Positions 23,046 through 33,116 of a DNA stretch of 64,000 bases are shown here, in pieces; the stretch's first letter is position 1, and the number at the start of each line of letters is the position of its first letter. The notes under the pieces are model-generated. The model was not told where the DNA came from and made no database searches. It saw only the letters and a program-made list of their open reading frames with translations. Origin of the DNA: Spirochaetota bacterium (GTDB lineage: Bacteria > Spirochaetota > UBA12135 > COTS27 > CAXSBA01); the NCBI GenBank assembly GCA_965277105.1, contig OZ255710.1:949936-1013935 (forward strand), read 5' to 3'. A program made the translations under genes and the position numbers.

Positions 23046-24041
23046 TTAAACGGTAATGTCTTTCAAACAAATTACTCCCACCAGTTTTTCCTGTTGATTA
23101 AGCACGGGGATTTCTCCAACTTTTTTTTCAACCATAATTTTCTGAGCTTCCCAAACATATTGATCTTGATTAATCGTGATAAAACTTTTATTCATATAAT
23201 TTTTAATAGAATTTCCCATTTGATGATTTTCGGTAAAAAGCCTCCTTAAATCCCCATCTGAAAAAATACCTACTAAATTATTTTTATTATTAGTAATCAC
23301 CGCTAAACCAATACGAGCATTAGTCATTTTTAACAACGCCTCACCTACCTTAGTAGTGGCAGTAACTTGAGCAATGTCTTTTTGTTTTCGCATAACTTCT
23401 TTTACATACATAAGTCGTAGCCCTAAACTTCCCCCCGGGTGATTACTCGCAAAAGAGTTTTCAGTAAATTGTTTATCGCTTTCTACTAAACTCACTGCTA
23501 AAGCATCCCCTAAGACCAACATAGCAGTAGTTGAAGTGGTAGGCGCTAAGCCTAAAAAACAGGCCTCTTCGCTTTTGCCGATAAGCAGGGTAAGAGTAGC
23601 TTCACTAGCGAGGTAAGATTTAGAGTTACTAGTAACCGCAATTAAAGGTGCTTTGATTTTTTTTATGGGGCCAATAATTGAAGTAGTTTCTTTGGTCTCC
23701 CCACTATTAGAAAAAAGGAAAACTAAGTCTTCTTCTCTTATCATTCCCAAGTCACCATGAGCAGCTTCAGCAGAGTGCATAAAAAAAGCAGATTTTCCTA
23801 GACTAGAAAAAGTACTAGCTATTTTTTGAGCAATTAGCCCCGCTTTGCCAATCCCCGAGAAAATTAGCTTACCCTTGCATTTTTTAATTTTCTCAATGAC
23901 TAGATTAAAATTATTATCTAATTTTTTCTCTAAATCGACTAGTCCTTTTTTCTCTAAAGCAATAACTTTTTTAGCAAAAGACAAGTAATTTTTTTTCACA
24001 TAAATAATTGTAAAATGAAAATCATTTTTTTTCAGCAACAA
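23046..24041 (-). CDS. kdsD: Arabinose-5-phosphate isomerase (KdsD/KpsF; SIS + tandem CBS)
   Basis: SIS domain GIGKAGLIAQKIASTFSSLG and C-terminal CBS pair. Implies KDO/LPS synthesis. Confidence 0.85.
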   Translation of the reverse strand: MLLKKNDFHFTIIYVKKNYLSFAKKVIALEKKGLVDLEKKLDNNFNLVIEKIKKCKGKLIFSGIGKAGLIAQKIASTFSSLGKSAFFMHSAEAAHGDLGMIREEDLVFLFSNSGETKETTSIIGPIKKIKAPLIAVTSNSKSYLASEATLTLLIGKSEEACFLGLAPTTSTTAMLVLGDALAVSLVESDKQFTENSFASNHPGGSLGLRLMYVKEVMRKQKDIAQVTATTKVGEALLKMTNARIGLAVITNNKNNLVGIFSDGDLRRLFTENHQMGNSIKNYMNKSFITINQDQYVWEAQKIMVEKKVGEIPVLNQQEKLVGVICLKDITV

Positions 24042-24091: not shown

Positions 24092-24670
24092 TTAAAATGA
24101 CCTTAAGTCATTTTTTTTGGTGGGAAAAGAAAAAGTAGTAAATTTTTTTAATGTAAAACCATGCTGCTTAAAAAAAAGTAAAAACCAAAAACTACTAGTT
24201 AAAACGACTGCATCATAATCATAACTTTTCCAATCTAAACCTTGCTTTATTTTAGTAATTTCTTTTAAGTTAGTTTTAATGTTAAAAAAAGTAAATAAAA
24301 AAAACTTTCCCCATACTTCAAATAACCTTTGATTGCTCGAAATAATTTTATTAATAATATAAGATAATTTAAACTCATAATTAGTCCCTATAATATTCGA
24401 ATAAAGATTAGGGCATTGTAAAATAAAACGAGTATTTTTTAATTCACTTATTTTTTTTAAAAGGGTATTTTTAGAAACTAAATGCTCCAAGACATCAATC
24501 GCCACAATAAGATCAAAATTTTTATTTAAAAGTAGTCCTAACTCTTTTTCGTTTTCCAAGTCCATTTTTTTAAAATTAATGTTTTTATTTTTAACCTGGG
24601 AATTTTTTAAAAATAAAGAAGAAGTATCAACAGCCGTTATATTTTTAAAATTACTTTTCAATAAAAGCAA
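24092..24670 (-). CDS. Class I SAM-dependent methyltransferase; annotated TTG start truncates motif I, the coding frame continues upstream to about 24841
   Basis: FDLIVAIDVLEHL post-I/motif II region in ORF. In-frame upstream codons encode ILEIGCGNGDFS (motif I) with no ATG/GTG/TTG before it. Confidence 0.6.
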   Translation of the reverse strand: MLLLKSNFKNITAVDTSSLFLKNSQVKNKNINFKKMDLENEKELGLLLNKNFDLIVAIDVLEHLVSKNTLLKKISELKNTRFILQCPNLYSNIIGTNYEFKLSYIINKIISSNQRLFEVWGKFFLFTFFNIKTNLKEITKIKQGLDWKSYDYDAVVLTSSFWFLLFFKQHGFTLKKFTTFSFPTKKNDLRSF

Positions 24671-24821: not shown

Positions 24822-26915
24822 TCAATATTTTTTACTAGTTTTTATTATTTTTTTATTTTTTTGAATGATTTTAACAATTTTTTTAAGAATATCTTTTTGG
24901 TTGAATTCTAGTTTTTTTAAGACTTTATCTTTAGGTCCAGAGAAACCAAATTGATTGATTGATTGAACATGAACTTGCTCACTAAAAAAACTGGCAAACC
25001 CTTTGTAAGAAGTAGCCTCTAACAAAAAAATGGGTTTTTTAAAATCAGCGAGTATTGTTTTTTTCCAAGCCGAGGAGCTTTTTTCAAATAACTCCAAACA
25101 AGGAATGCTAACCACTGAAGCAGAAATACCTTTGGCTAATAAATCCTCTTGGCAATCAAGGAGAGTACCTATCTCACTCCCACTACCTAGGAGAATAATA
25201 TCAGCTTCATTAACACTAGGCGACAGCTCATAAGCACCTTTTTTAAAATCGGAAAAACTCTTTAATATCTTTTCTTTTAAAAAACAAGTAGCAGCTAAAT
25301 CTTGCCTAGTAGTTAAAATAGAAACGGGAAAATTATTTTCTAAAAAAAACATAAAACTAAAAGCCACTTCCCTAGCAGTAGCTGGGCGAAAAACATAGTG
25401 ATTAGGAACTAGACGAAGAGAGTTTAATTGTTCAATGGGCTGATGCGTAGGGCCGTCTTCTCCTACTTGAACCGAGTCATGAGAAAAAATAAACAGGTGC
25501 TTTAACTCACTAATAGCGCTTAAACGAAGGGATGGTTTGAGATAATCATAAAAACTAAAAAAAGTAGAAGAGAATGGGATAAACGTACCATTTAAAGCTA
25601 GTCCATTATTAATCGCTGCCATGGCATGCTCTCTAACTCCATAAGCAATATTCCTACCAGAAAAATCATTAGCATTAAGGTAGTGGCTACTTTTAATCGT
25701 AGCTTTCGTCGAAGCAACTAAGTCAGCCGACCCACCGATCATTTGCGGGATAGCTTCAGCACATAATTGTAAAATTTCTGAGGCTATATTTCTAGTAGAA
25801 TCTTTAGGTTTCTTTATTTTATAATCTACTAGCTTTTTTCTTAATGTTGGGGTTAATATTTTTTTAGCTTTTTCGTAAAAAGAATTCTCTTTTAAAAATC
25901 TGCTATATTGCTTTTCCCAAATTTGGTAATTTTTAATTTTCTTCTGTAAATCAAAAAAATCTTTAGTCAAAGTCTTTTCTTTGGCTAAAAAATTTCCTGT
26001 TTGAATTTGCTTAGTAACCTCTTTTTTAATTCCCTCAATTTCATTAGGGAAAAAATCAGCTAAAGTAGAGTTTTTAATAAAGTAAGCGATTTCTGCTAAT
26101 CCCGCTGGACTACCATGAGCTTTTGAACTATTTACTAACTGGTTAAGCCCTTCTCCGATTCTAGTTTTCGCAATGATTAGCTTTGGTTTTTGAATTGAGC
26201 TGGTAACGCTTTTTTTGAAAACTTCTACTAGCGAAGCCAAATCATTTCCATTTACCTGAAAAACTTCCCAACCATAGGCCTTAAATTTCGCACCAATATT
26301 CTCGGAAAAAGCAATGTTAATATTCCCATCAATAGAAATATTATTTTGATCATAAATAGCAATTAAGTTGTTTATTTTCAAGTTGGCCGCCAAAGAAGCA
26401 GCTTCTTGAGTTACCCCTTCCATCATACAACCATCGCCTAAAAGCGTGAAAACATTAAAGTTAAAAAGATTAGAAAACTTCTTGAAACGAGATTGCAACA
26501 ATTTACTTTCTAAAGCTATCCCCACTGCATTAGCAAAACCCTGTCCTAAAGGACCAGTGGTGGTCTCTATTCTTTTCGAAAGATCAAACTCTGGATGACC
26601 GGGAGTGTTACTATTAAGCTGCCGAAAAGAAGCTAAATCTTTTAAGGTAAAACTGGATCCTGATAAATAATTAAGTCCGTATAAAAGCATAGATCCATGC
26701 CCGGCTGACAAAACAAACCTATCTCGAGCTAACCAATGAGGATCGTCTGGATTGAAGTTTAGGAAATATTTATGCAAAACAACACTTAGCAGAGAACAGC
26801 CCAAAGGAAGGCCGGGATGGCCAGAGTTGGCTTTTTCAATTGACAGTAATGAAAGGTAAGATAAATAATCTTTTGCTAGTAAAATTTCTTTTTTATCATT
26901 ATTGGTTATTTTCAT
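24822..26915 (-). CDS. tkt: Transketolase
   Basis: N-terminal TPP-binding GHPG motif, GDGCMMEG, full three-domain length (697 aa). Confidence 0.9.
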   Translation of the reverse strand: MKITNNDKKEILLAKDYLSYLSLLSIEKANSGHPGLPLGCSLLSVVLHKYFLNFNPDDPHWLARDRFVLSAGHGSMLLYGLNYLSGSSFTLKDLASFRQLNSNTPGHPEFDLSKRIETTTGPLGQGFANAVGIALESKLLQSRFKKFSNLFNFNVFTLLGDGCMMEGVTQEAASLAANLKINNLIAIYDQNNISIDGNINIAFSENIGAKFKAYGWEVFQVNGNDLASLVEVFKKSVTSSIQKPKLIIAKTRIGEGLNQLVNSSKAHGSPAGLAEIAYFIKNSTLADFFPNEIEGIKKEVTKQIQTGNFLAKEKTLTKDFFDLQKKIKNYQIWEKQYSRFLKENSFYEKAKKILTPTLRKKLVDYKIKKPKDSTRNIASEILQLCAEAIPQMIGGSADLVASTKATIKSSHYLNANDFSGRNIAYGVREHAMAAINNGLALNGTFIPFSSTFFSFYDYLKPSLRLSAISELKHLFIFSHDSVQVGEDGPTHQPIEQLNSLRLVPNHYVFRPATAREVAFSFMFFLENNFPVSILTTRQDLAATCFLKEKILKSFSDFKKGAYELSPSVNEADIILLGSGSEIGTLLDCQEDLLAKGISASVVSIPCLELFEKSSSAWKKTILADFKKPIFLLEATSYKGFASFFSEQVHVQSINQFGFSGPKDKVLKKLEFNQKDILKKIVKIIQKNKKIIKTSKKY

Positions 26916-26951: not shown

Positions 26952-29117
26952 TTAGCTTAAAGCTTCAAAAAACCTTAAATAAACACCAGGATTATCATTA
27001 ATATATTCTTTAAAAGTGTCTTTTTCTAACTTAAATAAAATTGCATTTTTAGCTTCACAACTAATAGTAGATGGCAGGTAGTTGGTGAATTCGTTATAAT
27101 TCCCAATAAAATCTCCTTTTTTAGGAGTGATAATTTTTTTGCTATTTTTATCTTTAATGGAAACACTTCCTGAATGGTAAATGTAAATCTCTTTGAATCT
27201 TTTCCCTCTTTTCAATAATTCTTGCTTTTCATTGCCAATGACAGTTCGACTAAGTAGAATTTCTAAGTCCGTTTTTTGTGAGCTAGTTAAATTTTCAAAT
27301 AGTGGCGTTTTGCTAAGAGCATCCCAACTCTGCTCGTCACGATTATGAGCAATTTTAAGGAGTTTTTCTTCTACTTTAGTTCCACTAATTAAATTAACAA
27401 AAGCTGATTTAGAAATGGCTAAAAGTTCTACTTCACTATCAGCAAAAACATTGACTGTTCGTTTTTTTGAGGTTAGCAAGGAAACTTCTCCTAAATACTG
27501 GTAAGCACCAAATCTTTTTAAGTCTTCATTGTTTTCTCCTTTTATCACCAAACTACCGCTAAGTATGATGTAGAAAACATTACCTTTTTCGCCTTTTTTA
27601 ATCAACTGTTGGCCTTTAGAATAGGTTTCTTTTTTAACTACCGCTAGAAGATCTTTGATTTTATTAGCAGTAAACTCTTTGAAAAGATCAATCTTACTAA
27701 TAATATCCATAACCGAATAAGCTTCTTCAAAAATACCCCTTTCAAAGTTAATAATTTTGGTATTAGCAATTCCAAATTTACTTAAAGTTAAGTCAGTTTT
27801 TTTCTCTTGAGTCCCTTTATGAAAATCAGTATCAGAAATATGATAAACCGATATTTTTTCTTGAATAGCTTTAGGTAAATCGTTAAGACGTCCAATAGGA
27901 GTATGAAGAGGTGGTACTCCCGATTCGTGATAAATCACATCAGCATCCCAAGGGAAATTTAGAAACTCTTCATATCGCTTCTGAGAGATAATTTTTTTAT
28001 CTAATAAATCTTTAAAGGCCTTAGGGTCGTTTAAGTGATCCGAGCTATAAACAAAAGTTTGGTCACGATAATGAAAACTGAATCCCATAGTAGGTATAGA
28101 ATGAAGCATATACCTAAAATTGAACCAAGCCCCTTTGATATTGAAGTCTTTTCCAATAATAATAGGGATAAAGTTAAATAACTGAGTCATCTTTTTAACA
28201 TTAATCTCTGCTAAAGTGGAATATTTCTTCAACCAAGAATCCATAATAGTTTTGGTGGTATAAATGGTGATTTTGTTTTGCTCCAAGATTTTTTGAAAAG
28301 TCCCCGTGTCGTGGTCAGCATGGGTGTGGGTTAAAATAATCGAATCAATGAGCTTAGGATTAACATTAGAGCGAACTAGCCACTCGGTAGAATTAACTGG
28401 GGGGTCAATCATTATCCCCATGCCATTAATCCAAACAATGAAACCAGAAGTATTACCCAAAGGATCAAAACCATGAGAAGAACCTAAGCAAGTCATCCCA
28501 AAAAGTGGGGGTTTAAACGGTTGTGTGGGAGTATTACCAATGTCATAAATAACGTTGTATTTTAACTCACTAGGGATAGTAGTGGTGAAGTTATAAAATT
28601 TATCTTCAATAATATACTCATCTTTTTCATTGAGAAAAATCTTACATTTACCTAACTCCACTTCTCTTTTTTCATTGAGAGGCTTAAACTCCACTAAATC
28701 TTCTATATTAAAGTTGGCAAAATATTTTGTTTCCGCTTTAATGTCGGGAATGTCTTTTGCCTCAGAAGGATAGTCATTAGAGATATCGTAACTTTCCGGA
28801 CCATAAAGGGCTTCATTAATAACTTTATTAAAAATAGCTTCGTGCTTCTTCAAGCAGATAATAATGGTTTTTTTTCTTTGAATAAAAAAGTTAAAATAAA
28901 TAGGGAACTCCAACTCAGCTACCGAAATGGCTTTTTTTCGGTCAAAAAAAACCTTAGGCAAGCAAATAATATTAGGCACTCCTTTTTCAAGGGACATGCT
29001 ATCTTTAATGGTTTCGGGAGGAGAACCAATTTGAATGTAGCCTTCGGATGTATTAACAATATACCCACCACGGGGAAGATCGTAATACTTACCTAATTCG
29101 AGAATTTTCTTATTCAT
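26952..29117 (-). CDS. Metallo-beta-lactamase-fold hydrolase fused to two C-terminal cyclic-nucleotide-binding (cNMP) domains, with an unknown about 200-aa N-terminal domain
   Basis: HTHADHDTG HxHxDH motif mid-protein. C-terminal GEVSLL...RTVNVFA cNMP-binding signature plus a second, more degenerate cNMP-like repeat. Confidence 0.7.
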   Translation of the reverse strand: MNKKILELGKYYDLPRGGYIVNTSEGYIQIGSPPETIKDSMSLEKGVPNIICLPKVFFDRKKAISVAELEFPIYFNFFIQRKKTIIICLKKHEAIFNKVINEALYGPESYDISNDYPSEAKDIPDIKAETKYFANFNIEDLVEFKPLNEKREVELGKCKIFLNEKDEYIIEDKFYNFTTTIPSELKYNVIYDIGNTPTQPFKPPLFGMTCLGSSHGFDPLGNTSGFIVWINGMGIMIDPPVNSTEWLVRSNVNPKLIDSIILTHTHADHDTGTFQKILEQNKITIYTTKTIMDSWLKKYSTLAEINVKKMTQLFNFIPIIIGKDFNIKGAWFNFRYMLHSIPTMGFSFHYRDQTFVYSSDHLNDPKAFKDLLDKKIISQKRYEEFLNFPWDADVIYHESGVPPLHTPIGRLNDLPKAIQEKISVYHISDTDFHKGTQEKKTDLTLSKFGIANTKIINFERGIFEEAYSVMDIISKIDLFKEFTANKIKDLLAVVKKETYSKGQQLIKKGEKGNVFYIILSGSLVIKGENNEDLKRFGAYQYLGEVSLLTSKKRTVNVFADSEVELLAISKSAFVNLISGTKVEEKLLKIAHNRDEQSWDALSKTPLFENLTSSQKTDLEILLSRTVIGNEKQELLKRGKRFKEIYIYHSGSVSIKDKNSKKIITPKKGDFIGNYNEFTNYLPSTISCEAKNAILFKLEKDTFKEYINDNPGVYLRFFEALS

Positions 29118-29190: not shown

Positions 29191-29790
29191 ATGGATTTTT
29201 CTAAAGCAAAAAAAGACTTTTATACTCTAAAAGCTAAAAGAGAAAACGTTAGAGCTAGGAGCTTTTATAAGCTACAAGAAATGGATGAAAAGTTTCTTTT
29301 AATAAAAAAACATCAACAACTACTAGATTTAGGGTGTGCTCCCGGCTCTTGGTCTCAGTATTGCTTTAAAAAAACCCAAAATAATATTCATATAGTTGGA
29401 TTGGATTTAACCGCCACTTCTTTATCTTTATATAAGGATAACTTCTTTTTTATTCAAGAAAATATTTTTAATTTTTCTAAGGAGAGTTTAAAAGGCATTG
29501 CTATTCCAAACGAACACTTTGATGGGATTATTAGCGATGTGGCTCCCAAAACTTCGGGCATAAAAGCAAAAGATAGCTACGAGTCTTTTGAGCTGGTTAG
29601 TCAAGTGATTAGTTTAGGAGAAATTTTTTTAAAAGAAAAAGGGTTTATTATTTTTAAGTATTTTTTAGGAGAAGAATTTCAGGAACTTAAAGAAAGATTT
29701 CAAAAGGCTTTTAAATTATTGAAAATTTTCAAGCCCCAGGCTAGTCGAAAAGATTCTAAAGAATTATTTTTTATAGGAGAAAAAAAATGA
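29191..29790 (+). CDS. rlmE: 23S rRNA (uridine2552-2-prime-O)-methyltransferase RlmE/FtsJ
   Basis: LDLGCAPGSWSQY motif I and IISDVAPKTSG motif. Stop overlaps argG start (ATGA). Confidence 0.85.
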   Translation: MDFSKAKKDFYTLKAKRENVRARSFYKLQEMDEKFLLIKKHQQLLDLGCAPGSWSQYCFKKTQNNIHIVGLDLTATSLSLYKDNFFFIQENIFNFSKESLKGIAIPNEHFDGIISDVAPKTSGIKAKDSYESFELVSQVISLGEIFLKEKGFIIFKYFLGEEFQELKERFQKAFKLLKIFKPQASRKDSKELFFIGEKK

Positions 29791-30995
29791 AAAAAGTTAT
29801 TTTAGCCTACTCGGGAGGTTTAGACACTTCGGTAATCTGCAAATGGTTATCAGAAAAAAATTATCAAGTCGTTTGTTATGTCGCTGACGTAGGGCAACAA
29901 GCAGATTTTGCAGCAATAAAAAAAAAGGCTATAAACTCGGGGGCCAGCAAGGTAGTTGTAGAAAATTTGCAAGATGAGTTCTTGGACAAATTTATCTTGC
30001 CGGCTTTAGGATTTAACGCCCTTTACGAAAGTAGGTACCTTTTAGGGACTTCCCTCGCTAGGCCGTTAATCGCTAAGGGGCTAGTGAACTGCGCTAAAAA
30101 GGAAAAGGCGAACATCATAGCCCATGGGGCTACTGGCAAGGGCAATGATCAAGTACGCTTTGAAATATCGGCCTATTCTCTAAATCCTAAAATCACCATT
30201 ATCGCTCCTTGGCGAATGAAAGAGTTTTACTCAGTTATCAAGGGAAGAAAAGAAGCCATTAGCTACGCTAAAAAACATAATATAAAAATAGCGGCCACTT
30301 CTTCTGAGCCCTGGTCTTCTGATGACAACCTTTATCACATTAGCTTTGAAGCAGGGATACTAGAAAACCCCGAACAAAAACCACCAGAAAAAATGTTTCA
30401 ATACAGTACAAGTATTTTAAAAAGCCCCAATAAAATAACTCCAATAAACTTAGAATTTCAAAAAGGAATTCCTGTGAAAATCAATAATCAATCCCTTTCC
30501 CCGGTAAAAATCTTACAGCGCCTTAATCAACTAGGGGGAGAAAATGGAGTGGGTAGAGTGGATATCGTAGAAAGCCGTTTTTTAGGGATGAAAAGTCGAG
30601 GCGTCTATGAAACTCCTGGGGGGACAATCCTCCACCAAGCTCACGTGGATCTTGAAACTTTTACATTGAGTAGAGAATTATTAAGGTTGAAAAATTCTTT
30701 GATGTTACGCTTTTCTGATTTAGTCTATAATGGCTTTTGGTATACCGAAGAGATGAATTGCCTTTTAGCTTTTCTTAAAGAAAGTCAAAAAAACGTTAGT
30801 GGGATTGTTGATTTAGAGATTATCAAAGGCAATGTCATTATTACCGGACGAAAGTCAAACGGAAGTCTTTATAACGAAAAAATTGCCTCTATGGACGATG
30901 ATGGCGGAGCTTATAATATTGAAGATGCTAGTGGGTTTATTAAAATCAATGCCTTGAACGTGAAAGCAGAAAAGCTGCGTGGGAAAGAAAAGTGA
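29787..30995 (+). CDS. argG: Argininosuccinate synthase
   Basis: AYSGGLDTS PP-loop, conserved ArgG body; SD-like TAGGAGA 8 nt upstream. Confidence 0.95.
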   Translation: MKKVILAYSGGLDTSVICKWLSEKNYQVVCYVADVGQQADFAAIKKKAINSGASKVVVENLQDEFLDKFILPALGFNALYESRYLLGTSLARPLIAKGLVNCAKKEKANIIAHGATGKGNDQVRFEISAYSLNPKITIIAPWRMKEFYSVIKGRKEAISYAKKHNIKIAATSSEPWSSDDNLYHISFEAGILENPEQKPPEKMFQYSTSILKSPNKITPINLEFQKGIPVKINNQSLSPVKILQRLNQLGGENGVGRVDIVESRFLGMKSRGVYETPGGTILHQAHVDLETFTLSRELLRLKNSLMLRFSDLVYNGFWYTEEMNCLLAFLKESQKNVSGIVDLEIIKGNVIITGRKSNGSLYNEKIASMDDDGGAYNIEDASGFIKINALNVKAEKLRGKEK

Positions 30996-31065
30996 GTTTT
31001 GGAGGAAGTGATAAAAAGTAAAAAGCAAAAACTAGTAAAAGCTTTGAAGTAAATAGTCGATAAAC

Positions 31066-32060
31066 ATGCCGAAAGGAAGTGCCAATAAAAATCTTCACCA
31101 AGCCAAAAGCTCCAAGAAAGACGATTTTATACCCAGCTAGTAGATATCGAAAACGAGCTCAAGCATTACAAAAAACACTTCCAGGGCAAGACCGTTTATT
31201 GCAACTGCGACGACCCCAGGATAAGTAATTTCTTCCACTACTTTTCTTATAGCTTCGAGCACCTCGGCCTGAAAAAACTCATTACCACTTGCTATCAAAG
31301 TCAAGAGCGAGATTTATTCAGCACCAACAGTAGCGAAAAAGCCATCTACCTAGAATACAACGGCGATAAAAACGGCAACCGCGTTCCCGACTTAGAAGAA
31401 ATAGGAGTGCATCACTTAAAAGGCGACGGGGATTTTAGAAGCAAGGAATGCATCGAACTCCTGCAAGAAGCGGACATCGTCGTTACCAACCCTCCCTTCT
31501 CTCTTTTTAGGGAATACGTCGCCCAGCTAATCGAGTATGATAAAAAGTTTTTGATAATTGGGAGTATTAACGCTATTACTTATAAAGAAATTTTTAAACT
31601 TATTAAAGAAAATAAATTATGGCTTGGCCCTAGTATTTTTAGCGGGGATAGGGAATTTGGTGTGCCTCAAGGTTACCCTTTAAAAGCCGCTGGCTATAGA
31701 GTAGATGAGCAGGGGAATAAATTTATAAGAGTCAAAGGAGTTCGTTGGTTCACTAACCTTCCCCACAACAAACGCTACGAAGATCTTATTTTATACAAAA
31801 CCTACCGAGGCAATGAGGATCATTATCCTACTTATGACAACTACGATGCTATCGAAGTGAGCAAAACCAAAGATATCCCCATGGACTACGAGGGAGCGAT
31901 GGGCGTGCCGATTACTTTTTTAGATAAATATAACCCCGAGCAGTTTGAAATAATTGGTAAAATGAGTACAACAAAATTAGACAAATATAATTTTGGATAT
32001 CCTTATATTAAAGGAAATAAAATTTACGCAAGAATTATTATTAAAAATAAAAAACTATAA
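31066..32060 (+). pseudogene. EcoRI-methylase-family N6-adenine DNA methyltransferase (M.EcoRI homologue), split by a -1 frameshift in a T4 tract at 31125-31128. No cognate endonuclease gene
   Basis: ATG at 31066 encodes MPKGSANKNLHQAKSSKKDDF then stops. The next frame continues YTQLVDIENELKHYKKHFQGKTVYCNCDDP ... DIVVTNPPFSLFREY ... to the stop at 32060 (GTG-initiated ORF 31407-32060 in the supplied track). GC content is about 45% versus about 30% background. Confidence 0.85.
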
Positions 32061-32078: not shown

Positions 32079-33116
32079 TTAAGAAAAGTTACTCCATTTT
32101 TCTAATAGTTCGCTAGCCTGACCACTAGTGACTATTTTTTCTACTTCGAATAAAGACTTTTTCAAAGGAATATCTTTATAAACCTTAAAAGCCAAAGCAG
32201 CGTTTAAAACTACAATATCTTTTTTGGCTCCTTTTTCTTTACCTTCTAAAATGTTTAAGGCAATTTTTTTATTATCATCTAGGTTTTTGCTGACAATACT
32301 ACTTAAAGGATATTTTTTAAAACCCAATTCCTCTGGGCTTAGCCAATATTTTTTTAGTTGCTTTTGATTAAACTCCACAATGTAAGTTTTAGCCGAAACA
32401 CTAGCCTCGTCAAGCCCGTCTTCACTACTGAGCACCATCCCCCTTTTTACGCCCAACGCCTTTAAAACTTTAGCCAAAGGGAGGCAATAGTTTTTATCAT
32501 AAACGCCCATTATTTGATAATCTATTTTCATAGGATTAAGTAGAGGGCCGAGAACATTAAAGATAGTCCTAAACCCCAAAGCCTTTCTAACGGGCATAAC
32601 ATACTTCATAACCGGATGAAGATTAGGGGCAAACAAAAAAGCGATGCCTATTTCTTTAAGGCACTTTTCTATTTTTTCAGGAGATAGATGAATGGGGATC
32701 CCTAACTTCTCCAACAAATCAGCACTGCCACATTTAGAAGTAATGGATCTATTGCCATGCTTACTAACTTTAACCCCGAGAGCAGCCAAAACAATGGCAG
32801 AAATAGTAGAAATATTAAAGGTGCTTTTATGATCCCCACCAGTCCCACAAGTGTCTATTATAGGTTCTCTAAATGGTTTTTTGATAGTAATGGCTTTTTT
32901 CTTTAAGGCTTTCGCTAGCCCATAAATTTCCTCAAAAGTTTCACCTTTAGTGTGGAGAGCAGTAAGGGTAGCCGCCACTTGAGGTTCAAGCATTTTCCCT
33001 TCGCCAATAGCTAGCATTAGTTTTTCGGCTTCTTCACTAGTAAGGTTTTTTTGTTCTATTAGTTTTTGATAAATCTCTAAAAAAGTTTTTTGGGTATTTT
33101 TTTTTGGATTAGGCAT
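32079..33116 (-). CDS. trpD: Anthranilate phosphoribosyltransferase
   Basis: GTGGD motif and conserved TrpD body. Confidence 0.9.
   Translation of the reverse strand: MPNPKKNTQKTFLEIYQKLIEQKNLTSEEAEKLMLAIGEGKMLEPQVAATLTALHTKGETFEEIYGLAKALKKKAITIKKPFREPIIDTCGTGGDHKSTFNISTISAIVLAALGVKVSKHGNRSITSKCGSADLLEKLGIPIHLSPEKIEKCLKEIGIAFLFAPNLHPVMKYVMPVRKALGFRTIFNVLGPLLNPMKIDYQIMGVYDKNYCLPLAKVLKALGVKRGMVLSSEDGLDEASVSAKTYIVEFNQKQLKKYWLSPEELGFKKYPLSSIVSKNLDDNKKIALNILEGKEKGAKKDIVVLNAALAFKVYKDIPLKKSLFEVEKIVTSGQASELLEKWSNFS

What the first reader, a model, noticed from the sequence alone, without database searches (positions are those of the whole stretch)
26952..29117. Metallo-beta-lactamase-fold hydrolase fused to tandem cyclic-nucleotide-binding domains
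The 721-aa product has an HxHxDH (HTHADHDTG) MBL core in its middle. The same fold is used by class II cyclic nucleotide phosphodiesterases and RNase Z-type nucleases. The C-terminal about 250 aa contain a clear cNMP-binding signature (GEVSLL ... RTVNVFA) and a second, degenerate cNMP-like repeat. The first about 200 aa form an unassigned N-terminal domain. A hydrolase directly gated by a cyclic nucleotide would be a one-component second-messenger effector, for example a cNMP-regulated phosphodiesterase or nuclease. The substrate and ligand are not obvious from sequence.
Basis: partly seen in the sequence, partly recalled or inferred. Interest (0 to 1): 0.55.

Follow-up and report, generated by a model that had tools for sequence, protein, structure and literature searches.

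The report
Cyclic-nucleotide-activated phosphodiesterase, Dictyostelium PdeD/PdeE type
This gene encodes a spirochaete version of an enzyme already characterised in the slime mould Dictyostelium, which destroys cAMP or cGMP and is switched on by that same nucleotide; it is a correct but largely ordinary find, apart from an undescribed N-terminal domain.

Summary
ORF 26952-29117 (minus strand, 721 aa) has a metallo-beta-lactamase (MBL) core with all metal ligands intact, followed by two cyclic-nucleotide-binding (CNB) domains and preceded by a conserved ~200-aa N-terminal domain.

The protein is a full-length homologue of the Dictyostelium cNMP-stimulated cNMP phosphodiesterases PdeD/GbpA and PdeE/GbpB:
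- 31% identity over residues 15-672 to D. purpureum PdeE (E 2e-87).
- The family profile hits dictyostelid orthologues at E ≤ 1e-128.

The family is near-universal in Leptospirales and related spirochaetes (at least 573 species genomes). NCBI already names members "cAMP/cGMP-dependent 3',5'-cyclic-AMP/GMP phosphodiesterase". It is also widespread in protists and algae, once fused to a nucleotide cyclase.

New details from this analysis:
- Only CNB-A keeps the ligand-binding Glu and Arg. CNB-B is degenerate across the family.
- The N-terminal domain belongs to the ancestral module. It has no Pfam model and no solved relative. Its predicted fold weakly but consistently resembles a histidine-less MBL domain, possibly a built-in pseudo-partner like the N-half of ELAC2.

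The ligand (cAMP or cGMP) is unresolved. I found no bacterial member that has been characterised experimentally.

The parts
26952..29117 (-). Complete ORF, 721 aa plus stop: N-domain, MBL phosphodiesterase core, CNB-A, CNB-B
   Evidence: ORF list. Full-length homologues of 715-740 aa at 43-75% identity. AF2 model mean pLDDT 88.3, pTM 0.88.
28509..29117 (-). N-terminal conserved domain (residues 1-203) with motifs LPRGGY, GSPPETIKD and EFPIYFNFF; no histidine ligands; candidate degenerate pseudo-MBL domain
   Evidence: Invariant residues in A1/A3 and in about 160-174 of 176 homologues. No Pfam family and no PDB relative by sequence profile. Domain model pLDDT 87.8. Foldseek top hits are mostly MBL-fold proteins, but weak (best E 5.6e-3, TM 0.35-0.48). 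hhalign against the catalytic MBL finds nothing (probability 0.3%). Present in eukaryotic homologues and in 127 of 145 MBL-containing representative clusters.
27753..28508 (-). Catalytic metallo-beta-lactamase-fold phosphodiesterase domain (residues 204-455)
   Evidence: Pfam Lactamase_B and Lactamase_B_2. Profile hits to Apyc1 (7u2s, 7u2r), a putative metal-dependent hydrolase (7t28) and BA1088 (1zkp). D238, H264, H266, D268, H269, D270, H339, D360, H397, E398, H405 and H426 conserved in 175-176 of 176.
28308..28331 (-). Metal-binding signature T263-H-T-H-A-D-H-D270
   Evidence: Translation. Matches the [T/S]HxHxDH signature of atypical class-II PDEs (PMC9293780) and the PdeD/PdeE motif HCHADHDS (PMC3188802). 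Family consensus is THCHADHDA.
27342..27716 (-). CNB-A (residues 468-592): canonical cyclic-nucleotide-binding domain, the predicted sensor
   Evidence: Pfam cNMP_binding best stretch 497-577. PDB sequence hits to PKG and PKA-R CNB domains, E 1e-15 to 1e-24. Foldseek matches the tandem CNB modules of PKA-R and PKG.
27441..27491 (-). Phosphate-binding cassette of CNB-A: G543-E544 ... R553-T554-V555 ... A559
   Evidence: Translation. Gly 96%, Glu 93% and Arg 85% conserved in 176 homologues.
26955..27332 (-). CNB-B (residues 596-721): degenerate CNB fold lacking the cassette Glu and Arg (G672-N673 ... P682-S683)
   Evidence: Pfam 26.8 bits, below the 27.5-bit cutoff. Translation KGDFIGNYNEFTNYLPS. 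The Arg-equivalent position is Pro in 97 of 176 and Arg in 7 of 176; Glu is present in only 59 of 176.

Best explanation
The gene encodes a cytoplasmic, self-contained cyclic-nucleotide phosphodiesterase of the PdeD/PdeE (GbpA/GbpB) type. Different authors call this type 'class IIb', 'PDE_III' or 'atypical class II' MBL PDE.

Proposed mechanism:
1. A binuclear metal centre hydrolyses the 3',5'-cyclic phosphodiester of cAMP and/or cGMP to the 5'-NMP. The centre is built from D238, H264/H266/D268/H269, H339, D360 and H426.
2. Basal activity is low.
3. When the cyclic nucleotide rises, it binds the canonical cassette of CNB-A (E544, R553).
4. The tandem CNB module rearranges, as it does in PKA-R and PKG, and this relieves inhibition of the catalytic core.
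5. The enzyme therefore degrades its own activator. This substrate-activated sink caps or terminates cNMP spikes.

CNB-B has lost the ligand-contacting residues and probably acts as a structural or transducing element. The conserved N-terminal domain is part of the catalytic unit. My inference is that it is a degenerate MBL-like half that packs against the active domain and replaces the second protomer that homodimeric MBL PDEs use to complete the active site.

Shown here: the domains, residue conservation, homology to the characterised family, and distribution. Inferred: the activity itself, activation by ligand, ligand identity (cAMP favoured, about 0.7), and the role of the N domain.
For: - Domains and motifs.
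- Catalytic residues conserved in 175-176 of 176 homologues; CNB-A cassette Gly 96%, Glu 93%, Arg 85%.
- The A1 profile hits D. purpureum DICPUDRAFT_56777 (E 3.4e-129), Heterostelium 'cGMP-stimulated cGMP phosphodiesterase' (5.8e-149) and Cavenderia 'cAMP/cGMP-stimulated cAMP/cGMP phosphodiesterase' (2.1e-128). PMC3188802 lists DICPUDRAFT_56777 as PdeE.
- BLASTP: 31% identity over residues 15-672 (E 2e-87) and 30% over residues 164-720 (E 8e-91).
- Literature: GbpA and GbpB are activated by cNMP binding to two domains downstream of the MBL catalytic domain; GbpA is cGMP-specific and GbpB prefers cAMP (PMC11988041). The PdeD/PdeE motif is HCHADHDS, and the family consensus here is THCHADHDA.
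- The [T/S]HxHxDH signature of atypical class-II PDEs (Rv1339, CpdA, YhfI) is met (PMC9293780).
- The MBL profile's best PDB hits are Apyc1 cNMP phosphodiesterases and BA1088. YhfI-type enzymes prefer cAMP/cGMP, and Apyc1 needs residues from the opposing protomer (PMC9117128).
- Gene-fusion link: in Chloropicon the whole N+MBL+CNB module lies inside a protein annotated 'guanylate cyclase', between two stretches that I read as class III cyclase domains.
- cAMP is an established messenger in Leptospira: the diguanylate cyclase Lcd1 senses cAMP (cited in PMC6717892).
- NCBI names orthologues 'cAMP/cGMP-dependent 3',5'-cyclic-AMP/GMP phosphodiesterase'.
Against: - I found no biochemical data for any bacterial member in the searchable literature.
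- Identity to the characterised eukaryotic clade is only about 30%, so substrate, activator and even the sign of regulation could differ.
- Ligand specificity cannot be read from the cassette. The R-T of the window protein occurs in both cAMP and cGMP binders, and that position varies across the family (S/T/A/K/N/Q).
- No cyclase or other CNB protein was detected in the 64-kb window, though this was a weak test.
- No conserved neighbours give functional context.
- The pseudo-MBL reading of the N domain rests on weak Foldseek scores and has no sequence support.
Confidence: 0.8

Rival explanations
1. A cNMP-gated nuclease of the RNase Z, RNase J or CPSF type. The MBL core would cleave RNA or DNA, and the cyclic nucleotide would only act as the allosteric signal.
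For: Sub-threshold NCBIfam hits to RNase Z (33 bits against a cutoff of about 293) and RNase J1. [quoted passage not shown] RNase Z, ELAC2 and RNase J appear among the fold neighbours of the N domain.
Against: The best sequence-profile matches in the PDB are cNMP phosphodiesterases, not RNase Z. Full-length homology is to enzymes characterised as cNMP PDEs. I found no beta-CASP or KH domain. The fusion partner is a nucleotide cyclase.
Confidence: 0.04
2. A phosphodiesterase whose substrate differs from its activator. Examples are a cAMP-activated hydrolase of cGMP, cyclic pyrimidines (cCMP/cUMP), 2',3'-cNMPs or cyclic dinucleotides. Such an enzyme would provide cross-talk between messengers or tune Pycsar-like immunity.
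For: There is a weak Pfam hit to Anti-Pycsar Apyc1 (16.9 bits, cutoff 50), and Apyc1 structures are among the closest solved MBL cores. The CNB-A domain also resembles the CNB domains of Pycsar effectors (PADLOC E 2.5e-11 to 2e-9). GbpB is dual-specific for both substrate and activator.
Against: The PADLOC hits cover only the generic CNB fold (residues 474-582). The neighbours are housekeeping genes, not a defence island. The gene is a conserved single-copy core gene across Leptospirales. YhfI-type host enzymes prefer cAMP/cGMP, and relaxed pyrimidine specificity is reported as an Apyc1-specific feature.
Confidence: 0.1
3. A constitutive PDE in which the CNB module no longer senses a nucleotide. 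The module would serve only for dimerisation or scaffolding, or would bind a different ligand such as a nucleoside, as in trypanosome PKA-R.
For: CNB-B is clearly degenerate. About 15% of family members lack the CNB-A Arg, apparently including D. purpureum PdeE in the BLAST alignment. Nucleoside-binding trypanosome PKA-R structures are among the fold hits.
Against: The window protein and 85-93% of homologues keep both E544 and R553 of CNB-A. That level of conservation is hard to explain without phosphate and ribose contacts. The characterised relatives are ligand-activated.
Confidence: 0.06

Closest known systems
Dictyostelium PdeD/GbpA (cGMP-stimulated cGMP PDE) and PdeE/GbpB (cAMP-stimulated cAMP/cGMP PDE), also called 'class IIb' or 'PDE_III' MBL phosphodiesterases
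   Same: Same domain order: N domain, MBL core, CNB-A, CNB-B. Same catalytic motif ([T]HCHADHD[AS]). Full-length sequence homology at 30-31% identity, E 1e-87 to 1e-91 pairwise and 1e-128 to 1e-149 by profile. The N-domain motifs (GxPPETIKD, EFP) are shared.
   Different: The bacterial protein is compact (721 aa) and lacks the long low-complexity N-terminal extensions and inserts of the dictyostelid proteins (965-1105 aa). The host is a spirochaete. The ligand and substrate are untested. The window protein has Thr instead of Cys in HxH (HTHADHDT).
Atypical class-II MBL cNMP phosphodiesterases: M. tuberculosis Rv1339, C. glutamicum CpdA, B. subtilis YhfI, B. anthracis BA1088, phage Apyc1
   Same: Same MBL fold and the same [T/S]HxHxDH binuclear-metal signature. 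These are the nearest solved structures by sequence profile. Their substrates are 3',5'-cNMPs.
   Different: Those enzymes are single-domain homodimers of about 250 aa with no CNB sensor and no N-terminal accessory domain. Sequence similarity is marginal (E 1e-5 to 1e-4).
Tandem CNB-A/CNB-B regulatory modules of PKA regulatory subunits and PKG
   Same: The C-terminal 255 residues superpose on tandem CNB modules (Foldseek E 1e-19 to 1e-14). CNB-A has the canonical G-E...R-[ST] cassette.
   Different: In PKA-R and PKG both CNB domains bind ligand and the output is a kinase. Here CNB-B lacks the ligand-contacting Glu and Arg, and the output is a fused hydrolase.
Long-form RNase Z (ELAC2): an inactive N-terminal pseudo-MBL half plus an active C-terminal MBL half
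   Same: It offers a possible analogy for the N domain. ELAC2 appears among the N domain's fold neighbours. The N domain has no metal-binding histidines and shows the same order of secondary-structure elements as the first about 150 residues of the catalytic domain.
   Different: No sequence relationship was detected. The N domain is shorter than a full MBL fold (about 200 aa). The substrate is a small molecule rather than tRNA. The interface could not be examined.
Mammalian PDE2 and Bdellovibrio Bd1971 (cNMP-activated phosphodiesterases)
   Same: Same logic: a cyclic nucleotide binds a fused sensor domain and activates a phosphodiesterase. Bd1971 uses a CNB-type domain to sense cAMP (PMC6717892).
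   Different: The catalytic folds are unrelated (HD-type class I in PDE2, EAL in Bd1971). PDE2 uses a different sensor (GAF; from my own knowledge). Bd1971 degrades c-di-GMP, not its own activator.

Membership tests
PdeD/PdeE (GbpA/GbpB) cNMP-stimulated MBL phosphodiesterases | Significant full-length sequence homology to dictyostelid PdeD/PdeE | tested here: met
   Profile E 3.4e-129 (D. purpureum PdeE), 5.8e-149 (Heterostelium PdeD-type) and 2.1e-128 (Cavenderia PdeE-type). BLASTP 31% over residues 15-672 and 30% over residues 164-720.
PdeD/PdeE (GbpA/GbpB) cNMP-stimulated MBL phosphodiesterases | Architecture: MBL catalytic domain followed by two CNB domains | tested here: met
   Pfam, AF2 model, Foldseek tandem CNB hits. 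Architecture as described in PMC11988041.
PdeD/PdeE (GbpA/GbpB) cNMP-stimulated MBL phosphodiesterases | Catalytic motif HCHADHDS-like | tested here: met
   The window has HTHADHDT. The family consensus is THCHADHDA, with the exact THCHADHDS in 14 representatives. Motif quoted from PMC3188802.
PdeD/PdeE (GbpA/GbpB) cNMP-stimulated MBL phosphodiesterases | Hydrolysis of cAMP/cGMP, stimulated by cAMP/cGMP | not testable with these tools
   This needs an enzyme assay. I found no bacterial member characterised in the searchable literature.
Atypical class-II PDEs (PF12706; Rv1339/CpdA/YhfI) | [T/S]HxHxDH metal-binding signature with downstream His and Asp ligands | tested here: met
   T263-H-T-H-A-D-H269. 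Position 263 is T in 169 and S in 7 of 176 homologues. H339, D360 and H426 are conserved in 175-176 of 176. Lactamase_B_2 scores 28.3 bits against a 27-bit cutoff.
Anti-Pycsar Apyc1 (PF23023) | Pfam gathering score for the family | tested here: not met
   16.9 bits against a cutoff of 50, covering only residues 226-273. This reflects relatedness of the fold and motif, not membership.
RNase Z (TIGR02651 / ElaC) | NCBIfam equivalog score | tested here: not met
   33 bits against a cutoff of 292.95.
Canonical ligand-binding CNB domain (PF00027) | Phosphate-binding cassette with Gly-Glu and Arg-[Ser/Thr/Ala] | tested here: met
   Met for CNB-A: G543-E544 ... R553-T554, conserved in 85-96% of homologues. 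Not met for CNB-B: N673 and P682 occupy the Glu and Arg positions, and the Pfam score is just below the cutoff.
MBL fold (for the N-terminal domain, as a degenerate copy) | Structural similarity to MBL-fold proteins and/or sequence-profile similarity | tested here: inconclusive

The most novel reading that the evidence does not exclude
The conserved, unannotated N-terminal domain is a degenerate, metal-free MBL-like half that forms an intramolecular pseudo-dimer with the active MBL domain, as the two halves of ELAC2 do. On this reading the invariant R16, E35, K38, D39, E68, E70 and Y74 would supply the 'opposing-protomer' residues that homodimeric MBL cNMP phosphodiesterases such as Apyc1 need. 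N+MBL would then be the true catalytic unit of the whole PdeD/PdeE family, from spirochaetes to algae. As far as I could find, this feature has not been described, and the family has no solved structure. A secondary point is that this may be the principal cAMP-degrading enzyme of Leptospira and is uncharacterised in bacteria.
Probability: 0.4. Interest if true: 0.45.

Novelty: new member of a known kind. Interest (0 to 1): 0.3.

Why it matters
The result has modest significance.

- It places a spirochaete gene, and by extension the orthologues in pathogenic Leptospira interrogans and L. borgpetersenii, in an experimentally characterised family of self-activating cNMP phosphodiesterases. That gives a concrete, testable candidate for how these bacteria terminate cAMP (or cGMP) signals.
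- Leptospira is already known to use cAMP to control c-di-GMP synthesis through Lcd1. A substrate-activated cAMP sink would therefore sit upstream of biofilm and motility decisions.
- The family's distribution is patchy and spans domains of life: Spirochaetota plus dictyostelids, green algae, Rhizaria, haptophytes and chytrids. This suggests ancient horizontal transfer and makes the compact bacterial protein an attractive target for the first structure of the family.
- The N-terminal domain has no Pfam model and no solved relative, so it is a small structural question in its own right.

Tried and rejected
1. Primary Dictyostelium papers (PMC133600, PMC133599, PMC124474) are not held. I relied on a 2025 review and a 2011 genome paper instead.
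3. With the full-length model as query, the Foldseek search was dominated by the tandem CNB module and said nothing about the MBL or N domains. I therefore cut the alignment into domains.
4. The internal-duplication test (hhalign, N domain against catalytic MBL) was negative.
5. The N-domain profile found nothing in the PDB.
6. Model coordinates are not exposed to scripts, so inter-domain contacts and the active-site environment could not be examined.
7. Gene-neighbourhood analysis over 80 loci found no universally conserved partner. A thioredoxin and a ~270-aa ORF lie upstream in 26 and 30 of the 80 loci, and an acyl-CoA-dehydrogenase-like gene downstream in 20. None of these is in the window.
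8. A search of the window for a nucleotide cyclase or further CNB proteins was negative, though phmmer with single distant queries has low sensitivity.
9. Promoter and terminator scans around the gene were not above shuffled expectation and were not used.
10. A defence-system role was considered because of the Apyc1 and PADLOC hits. I rejected it because the hits are domain-level only and the context is housekeeping.
11. Literature searches for a characterised bacterial MBL+CNB PDE returned nothing relevant.
Full report
**Observation**

The quoted motifs are real:
- THTHADHD is residues 263-270.
- GEVSLLTSKKRTVNVFA is residues 543-559.

Pfam detects three families above their curated cutoffs:

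| Family | Score | Position |
|---|---|---|
| cNMP_binding | E 3.7e-23, two stretches | best stretch 497-577 |
| Lactamase_B | E 1.7e-7 | 221-363 |
| Lactamase_B_2 | 28.3 bits (cutoff 27) | 253-360 |

The second CNB repeat scored alone reaches 26.8 bits against a 27.5-bit cutoff, so "degenerate" is a fair description. The first ~200 residues match no Pfam or NCBIfam family.

**What the protein is**

A word-indexed search of 5.8 billion proteins returned 1,246 hits. The best 120 are full-length proteins or fragments at 43-75% identity, typically 715-740 aa, and almost all come from Spirochaetota. NCBI already names several "cAMP/cGMP-dependent 3',5'-cyclic-AMP/GMP phosphodiesterase".

A scan of one genome per GTDB species found at least 573 species with a confirmed relative. 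The best 80 are Leptospira (including L. interrogans, L. borgpetersenii and L. weilii), Leptonema, Turneriella, Brevinema, Brachyspira, Exilispira and Treponema MAGs, plus unclassified Spirochaetota. The nearest relative (75% identity) lies on a 1.8-Mb contig of an uncultured Spirochaetota MAG with the same flanking genes.

An exhaustive profile search of 1.84 billion cluster representatives found 1,145 clusters at E ≤ 1e-30. Many of the best 150 are long proteins of 800-2,600 aa. Exact look-ups showed that the ones I could trace are eukaryotic:
- Chlorokybus
- Rhodelphis
- Paulinella
- the haptophyte Scyphosphaera
- Batrachochytrium
- Chloropicon
- three dictyostelids (next paragraph)

The three dictyostelid hits are decisive:
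- **P0237** is D. purpureum DICPUDRAFT_56777, which the D. purpureum genome paper lists as PdeE (PMC3188802).
- **P0203** is Heterostelium album "cGMP-stimulated cGMP phosphodiesterase".
- **P0240** is Cavenderia fasciculata "cAMP/cGMP-stimulated cAMP/cGMP phosphodiesterase".

They match the spirochaete profile at E 3.4e-129, 5.8e-149 and 2.1e-128 respectively. Pairwise BLASTP of the window protein gives:
- 31% identity over residues 15-672 to D. purpureum PdeE (E 2e-87);
- 30% identity over residues 164-720 to the Heterostelium protein (E 8e-91), plus a separate N-domain segment at 49% over residues 28-72.

The literature describes this family precisely. GbpA/PdeD and GbpB/PdeE are intracellular PDEs with an MBL catalytic domain followed by two cyclic-nucleotide-binding domains whose occupancy activates hydrolysis. 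GbpA is cGMP-specific, and GbpB prefers cAMP (PMC11988041). Their catalytic motif is HCHADHDS (PMC3188802). The consensus of the family here is THCHADHDA, 14 representatives carry the exact THCHADHDS, and the window protein has THTHADHDT. The window protein is therefore a bacterial member of the PdeD/PdeE family.

**Catalytic core**

In an alignment of 176 homologues of 650-830 aa, these residues are conserved in 175 or 176 sequences: D238, H264, H266, D268, H269, D270, H339, D360, H397, E398, H405 and H426. Position 263 is T in 169 and S in 7.

This satisfies the [T/S]HxHxDH signature that Thomson et al. used to define "atypical class-II PDEs" (Rv1339, CpdA, YhfI; PMC9293780).

A profile of the MBL segment searched against all PDB sequences finds six chains at E ≤ 0.01:
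- two Apyc1 anti-Pycsar cNMP phosphodiesterases (7u2s, 7u2r);
- a "putative metal-dependent hydrolase" (7t28);
- BA1088 (1zkp), whose PDB title calls it the ELAC homologue of B. anthracis and which appears alongside the YhfI structures in the fold search;
- one glyoxalase II;
- one further [quoted passage not shown].

RNase Z and RNase J reach only far-sub-threshold NCBIfam scores. The Apyc1 paper shows that these MBL enzymes hydrolyse 3',5'-cNMPs to 5'-NMPs at a two-Zn site, that B. subtilis YhfI strongly prefers cAMP/cGMP, and that they act as homodimers in which residues from the opposing protomer (E74, Y112 in Apyc1) are required (PMC9117128). No member of the PdeD/PdeE family itself has a solved structure; the full-length PDB sequence search matched only CNB domains.

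**Sensor module**

The AF2 model built on 33 homologues is confident (mean pLDDT 88.3, pTM 0.88). Its C-terminal 255 residues superpose on the tandem CNB-A/CNB-B modules of PKA regulatory subunits and PKG (Foldseek E 1e-19 to 1e-14).

| Cassette position | CNB-A (window) | CNB-A in 176 homologues | CNB-B (window) | CNB-B in 176 homologues |
|---|---|---|---|---|
| Gly | G543 | 96% | G672 | 150 of 176 |
| Glu | E544 | 93% | N673 | Glu in 59 of 176 |
| Arg | R553 | 85% | P682 | Pro in 97, Arg in 7 |

Only CNB-A is therefore a credible ligand site. CNB-B is a conserved but ligand-blind CNB fold, presumably a structural or transducing element.

Ligand identity cannot be read from the sequence. The residue after the Arg is Thr in the window protein but S/T/A/K/N/Q across the family. 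From my own knowledge, R-S and R-T cassettes occur in both cAMP binders (CAP, MloK1) and cGMP binders (PKG). I favour cAMP at about 0.7 because it is the documented messenger in Leptospira; the cAMP-activated diguanylate cyclase Lcd1 is cited in PMC6717892.

**The N-terminal domain**

Residues 1-203 are strongly conserved. The motifs LPRGGY, GSPPETIKD and EFPxYxNF are invariant in A1 and present in about 160-174 of 176 homologues.

The domain is not a spirochaete addition:
- The same motifs precede the MBL core in the eukaryotic proteins.
- Domain HMMs detect it next to the MBL core in 127 of 145 MBL-containing representatives. The 18 without it are mostly short sequences that may be fragments.
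- CNB content is more variable, so N+MBL behaves as the conserved unit.

It has no Pfam model and no sequence-detectable relative in the PDB. Modelled alone it folds confidently (pLDDT 87.8).

Foldseek against the PDB returns no strong hit (best E 5.6e-3). Even so, the top of the list is made up almost entirely of MBL-fold proteins aligned over 165-198 of the 203 residues at TM 0.35-0.48. These include Apyc1, BA1088, YhfI, tRNase Z, ELAC2, RNase J, CPSF3, FprA, an arylsulfatase and SPS-1. The few other hits scattered among them (GPCR-Gs complexes, lysine monooxygenase, FNR, integrase) have TM 0.11-0.22.

The order of predicted secondary-structure elements is βββ-α-β-α-β-α-(α)-βββββ, which parallels residues 206-358 of the catalytic domain. 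By eye, the segment after β3 reads IQIGSPPE in the N domain and IMIDPPVN in the catalytic domain, and β4 reads IICLP against IILTH. The domain contains no conserved histidine.

My reading, at about 0.4, is that the N domain is a degenerate MBL-like half that plays the part of the second protomer. This is analogous to the inactive N-terminal half of long-form RNase Z (the ELAC2 comparison is from my own knowledge).

**Context**

The gene sits among housekeeping genes.

| Coordinates | Strand | Gene | Position relative to the PDE gene |
|---|---|---|---|
| 23046-24041 | - | KpsF-like SIS/CBS isomerase | further downstream |
| 24092-24670 | - | small methyltransferase | further downstream |
| 24822-26915 | - | transketolase | downstream, 36 bp away, no convincing terminator between |
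| 29191-29790 | + | RlmE/FtsJ | upstream, divergent |
| 29787-30995 | + | argininosuccinate synthase | upstream, divergent |
| 32079-33116 | - | TrpD | further upstream |

Across 80 related loci, no neighbour is universally conserved. PADLOC hits are confined to the generic CNB fold shared with Pycsar effectors. Nothing suggests a defence island or an operon partner, so this is a stand-alone, one-component enzyme.

The one informative association is a gene fusion. In Chloropicon roscoffensis the entire N+MBL+CNB module lies at about residues 480-1234 of a ~2,000-aa membrane protein annotated "guanylate cyclase", between two stretches that I read as class III cyclase domains from their sequence motifs. 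This ties the module to cNMP metabolism.

**Mechanism proposed**

Steps 1, 2 and 4 below are inferred from homology and step 3 from the fold match; none was tested here.
1. The binuclear metal site hydrolyses cAMP and/or cGMP.
2. The nucleotide also binds CNB-A.
3. The tandem CNB module rearranges as in PKA-R and PKG.
4. Inhibition of the N+MBL catalytic unit is relieved.

The result is a substrate-activated sink that contributes little at low cNMP and increasingly more as levels rise. The review reports this behaviour for GbpB relative to RegA.

**Rivals**

| Rival | Confidence | Main reason for the low score |
|---|---|---|
| cNMP-gated nuclease | about 0.04 | Contradicted by the family assignment |
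| PDE whose substrate differs from its activator (cross-talk, cyclic pyrimidines) | about 0.10 | Cannot be excluded without assays |
| Constitutive PDE with a non-sensing CNB module | about 0.06 | Disfavoured by conservation of E544 and R553 |

**Novelty and verdict**

The architecture, however, has been characterised in Dictyostelium since 2002 (publication date taken from the reference list shown) and is already propagated into RefSeq names for Leptospira.

Added value here:
- explicit proof of membership;
- the finding that CNB-B is ligand-blind across the family;
- recognition that the unannotated N-terminal domain is an ancestral part of the catalytic unit with a possible pseudo-MBL fold;
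- the broad spirochaete and protist distribution;
- the absence of any characterised bacterial member in the searchable literature.

This is a new member of a known kind, with interest 0.3.

Noticed in passing
window 31407-32060 (+), with the gap 30996-31406: A 217-aa ORF with a GTG start matches only positions 120-345 of the 345-position EcoRI adenine methyltransferase profile (E 1.7e-97). No upstream ORF supplies the missing N-terminal third. The surrounding 2 kb has the highest GC in the window (0.392 against about 0.33). It looks like a 5'-truncated remnant of a horizontally acquired restriction-modification methylase.
   Followed up: partly
P0177/P0274 (Chloropicon roscoffensis protein annotated 'guanylate cyclase', 1951-2113 aa): The whole N+MBL+CNB phosphodiesterase module is embedded between two stretches that look like class III cyclase domains, each preceded by hydrophobic stretches that look like transmembrane segments. 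If so, one polypeptide could both make and destroy a cyclic nucleotide.
   Followed up: partly
L008, L018, L025 and other Leptospirales loci, immediately upstream of the PDE gene: In 26 of 80 related loci a thioredoxin-like ORF of about 103 aa (WCGPC motif) lies directly upstream on the same strand. In 30 of 80 loci a ~270-aa ORF also lies upstream. Neither is present in the window. This may be a lineage-specific operon or mere synteny.
   Followed up: no
window 1-64000: No tRNA gene and no Rfam family at gathering threshold anywhere in the 64 kb. GC is about 0.29-0.39 throughout and cumulative GC skew declines steadily, consistent with a single replichore of a low-GC spirochaete chromosome.
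   Followed up: no
P0237 (D. purpureum PdeE), CNB-A region aligned to window residues 543-559: In the BLAST alignment the D. purpureum PdeE CNB-A cassette reads GESALQLDKSINASATV and appears to lack the canonical Arg. The Heterostelium PdeD-type protein keeps it (GEMSLIMGGLRSAKV). Which CNB domain senses the ligand may therefore differ between the PdeD and PdeE branches.
   Followed up: no
window 24092-24670 (-): A 192-aa ORF matches class I SAM-methyltransferase profiles only from about profile position 13-40 onward and starts with TTG. It may be N-terminally mis-called or truncated.
   Followed up: no
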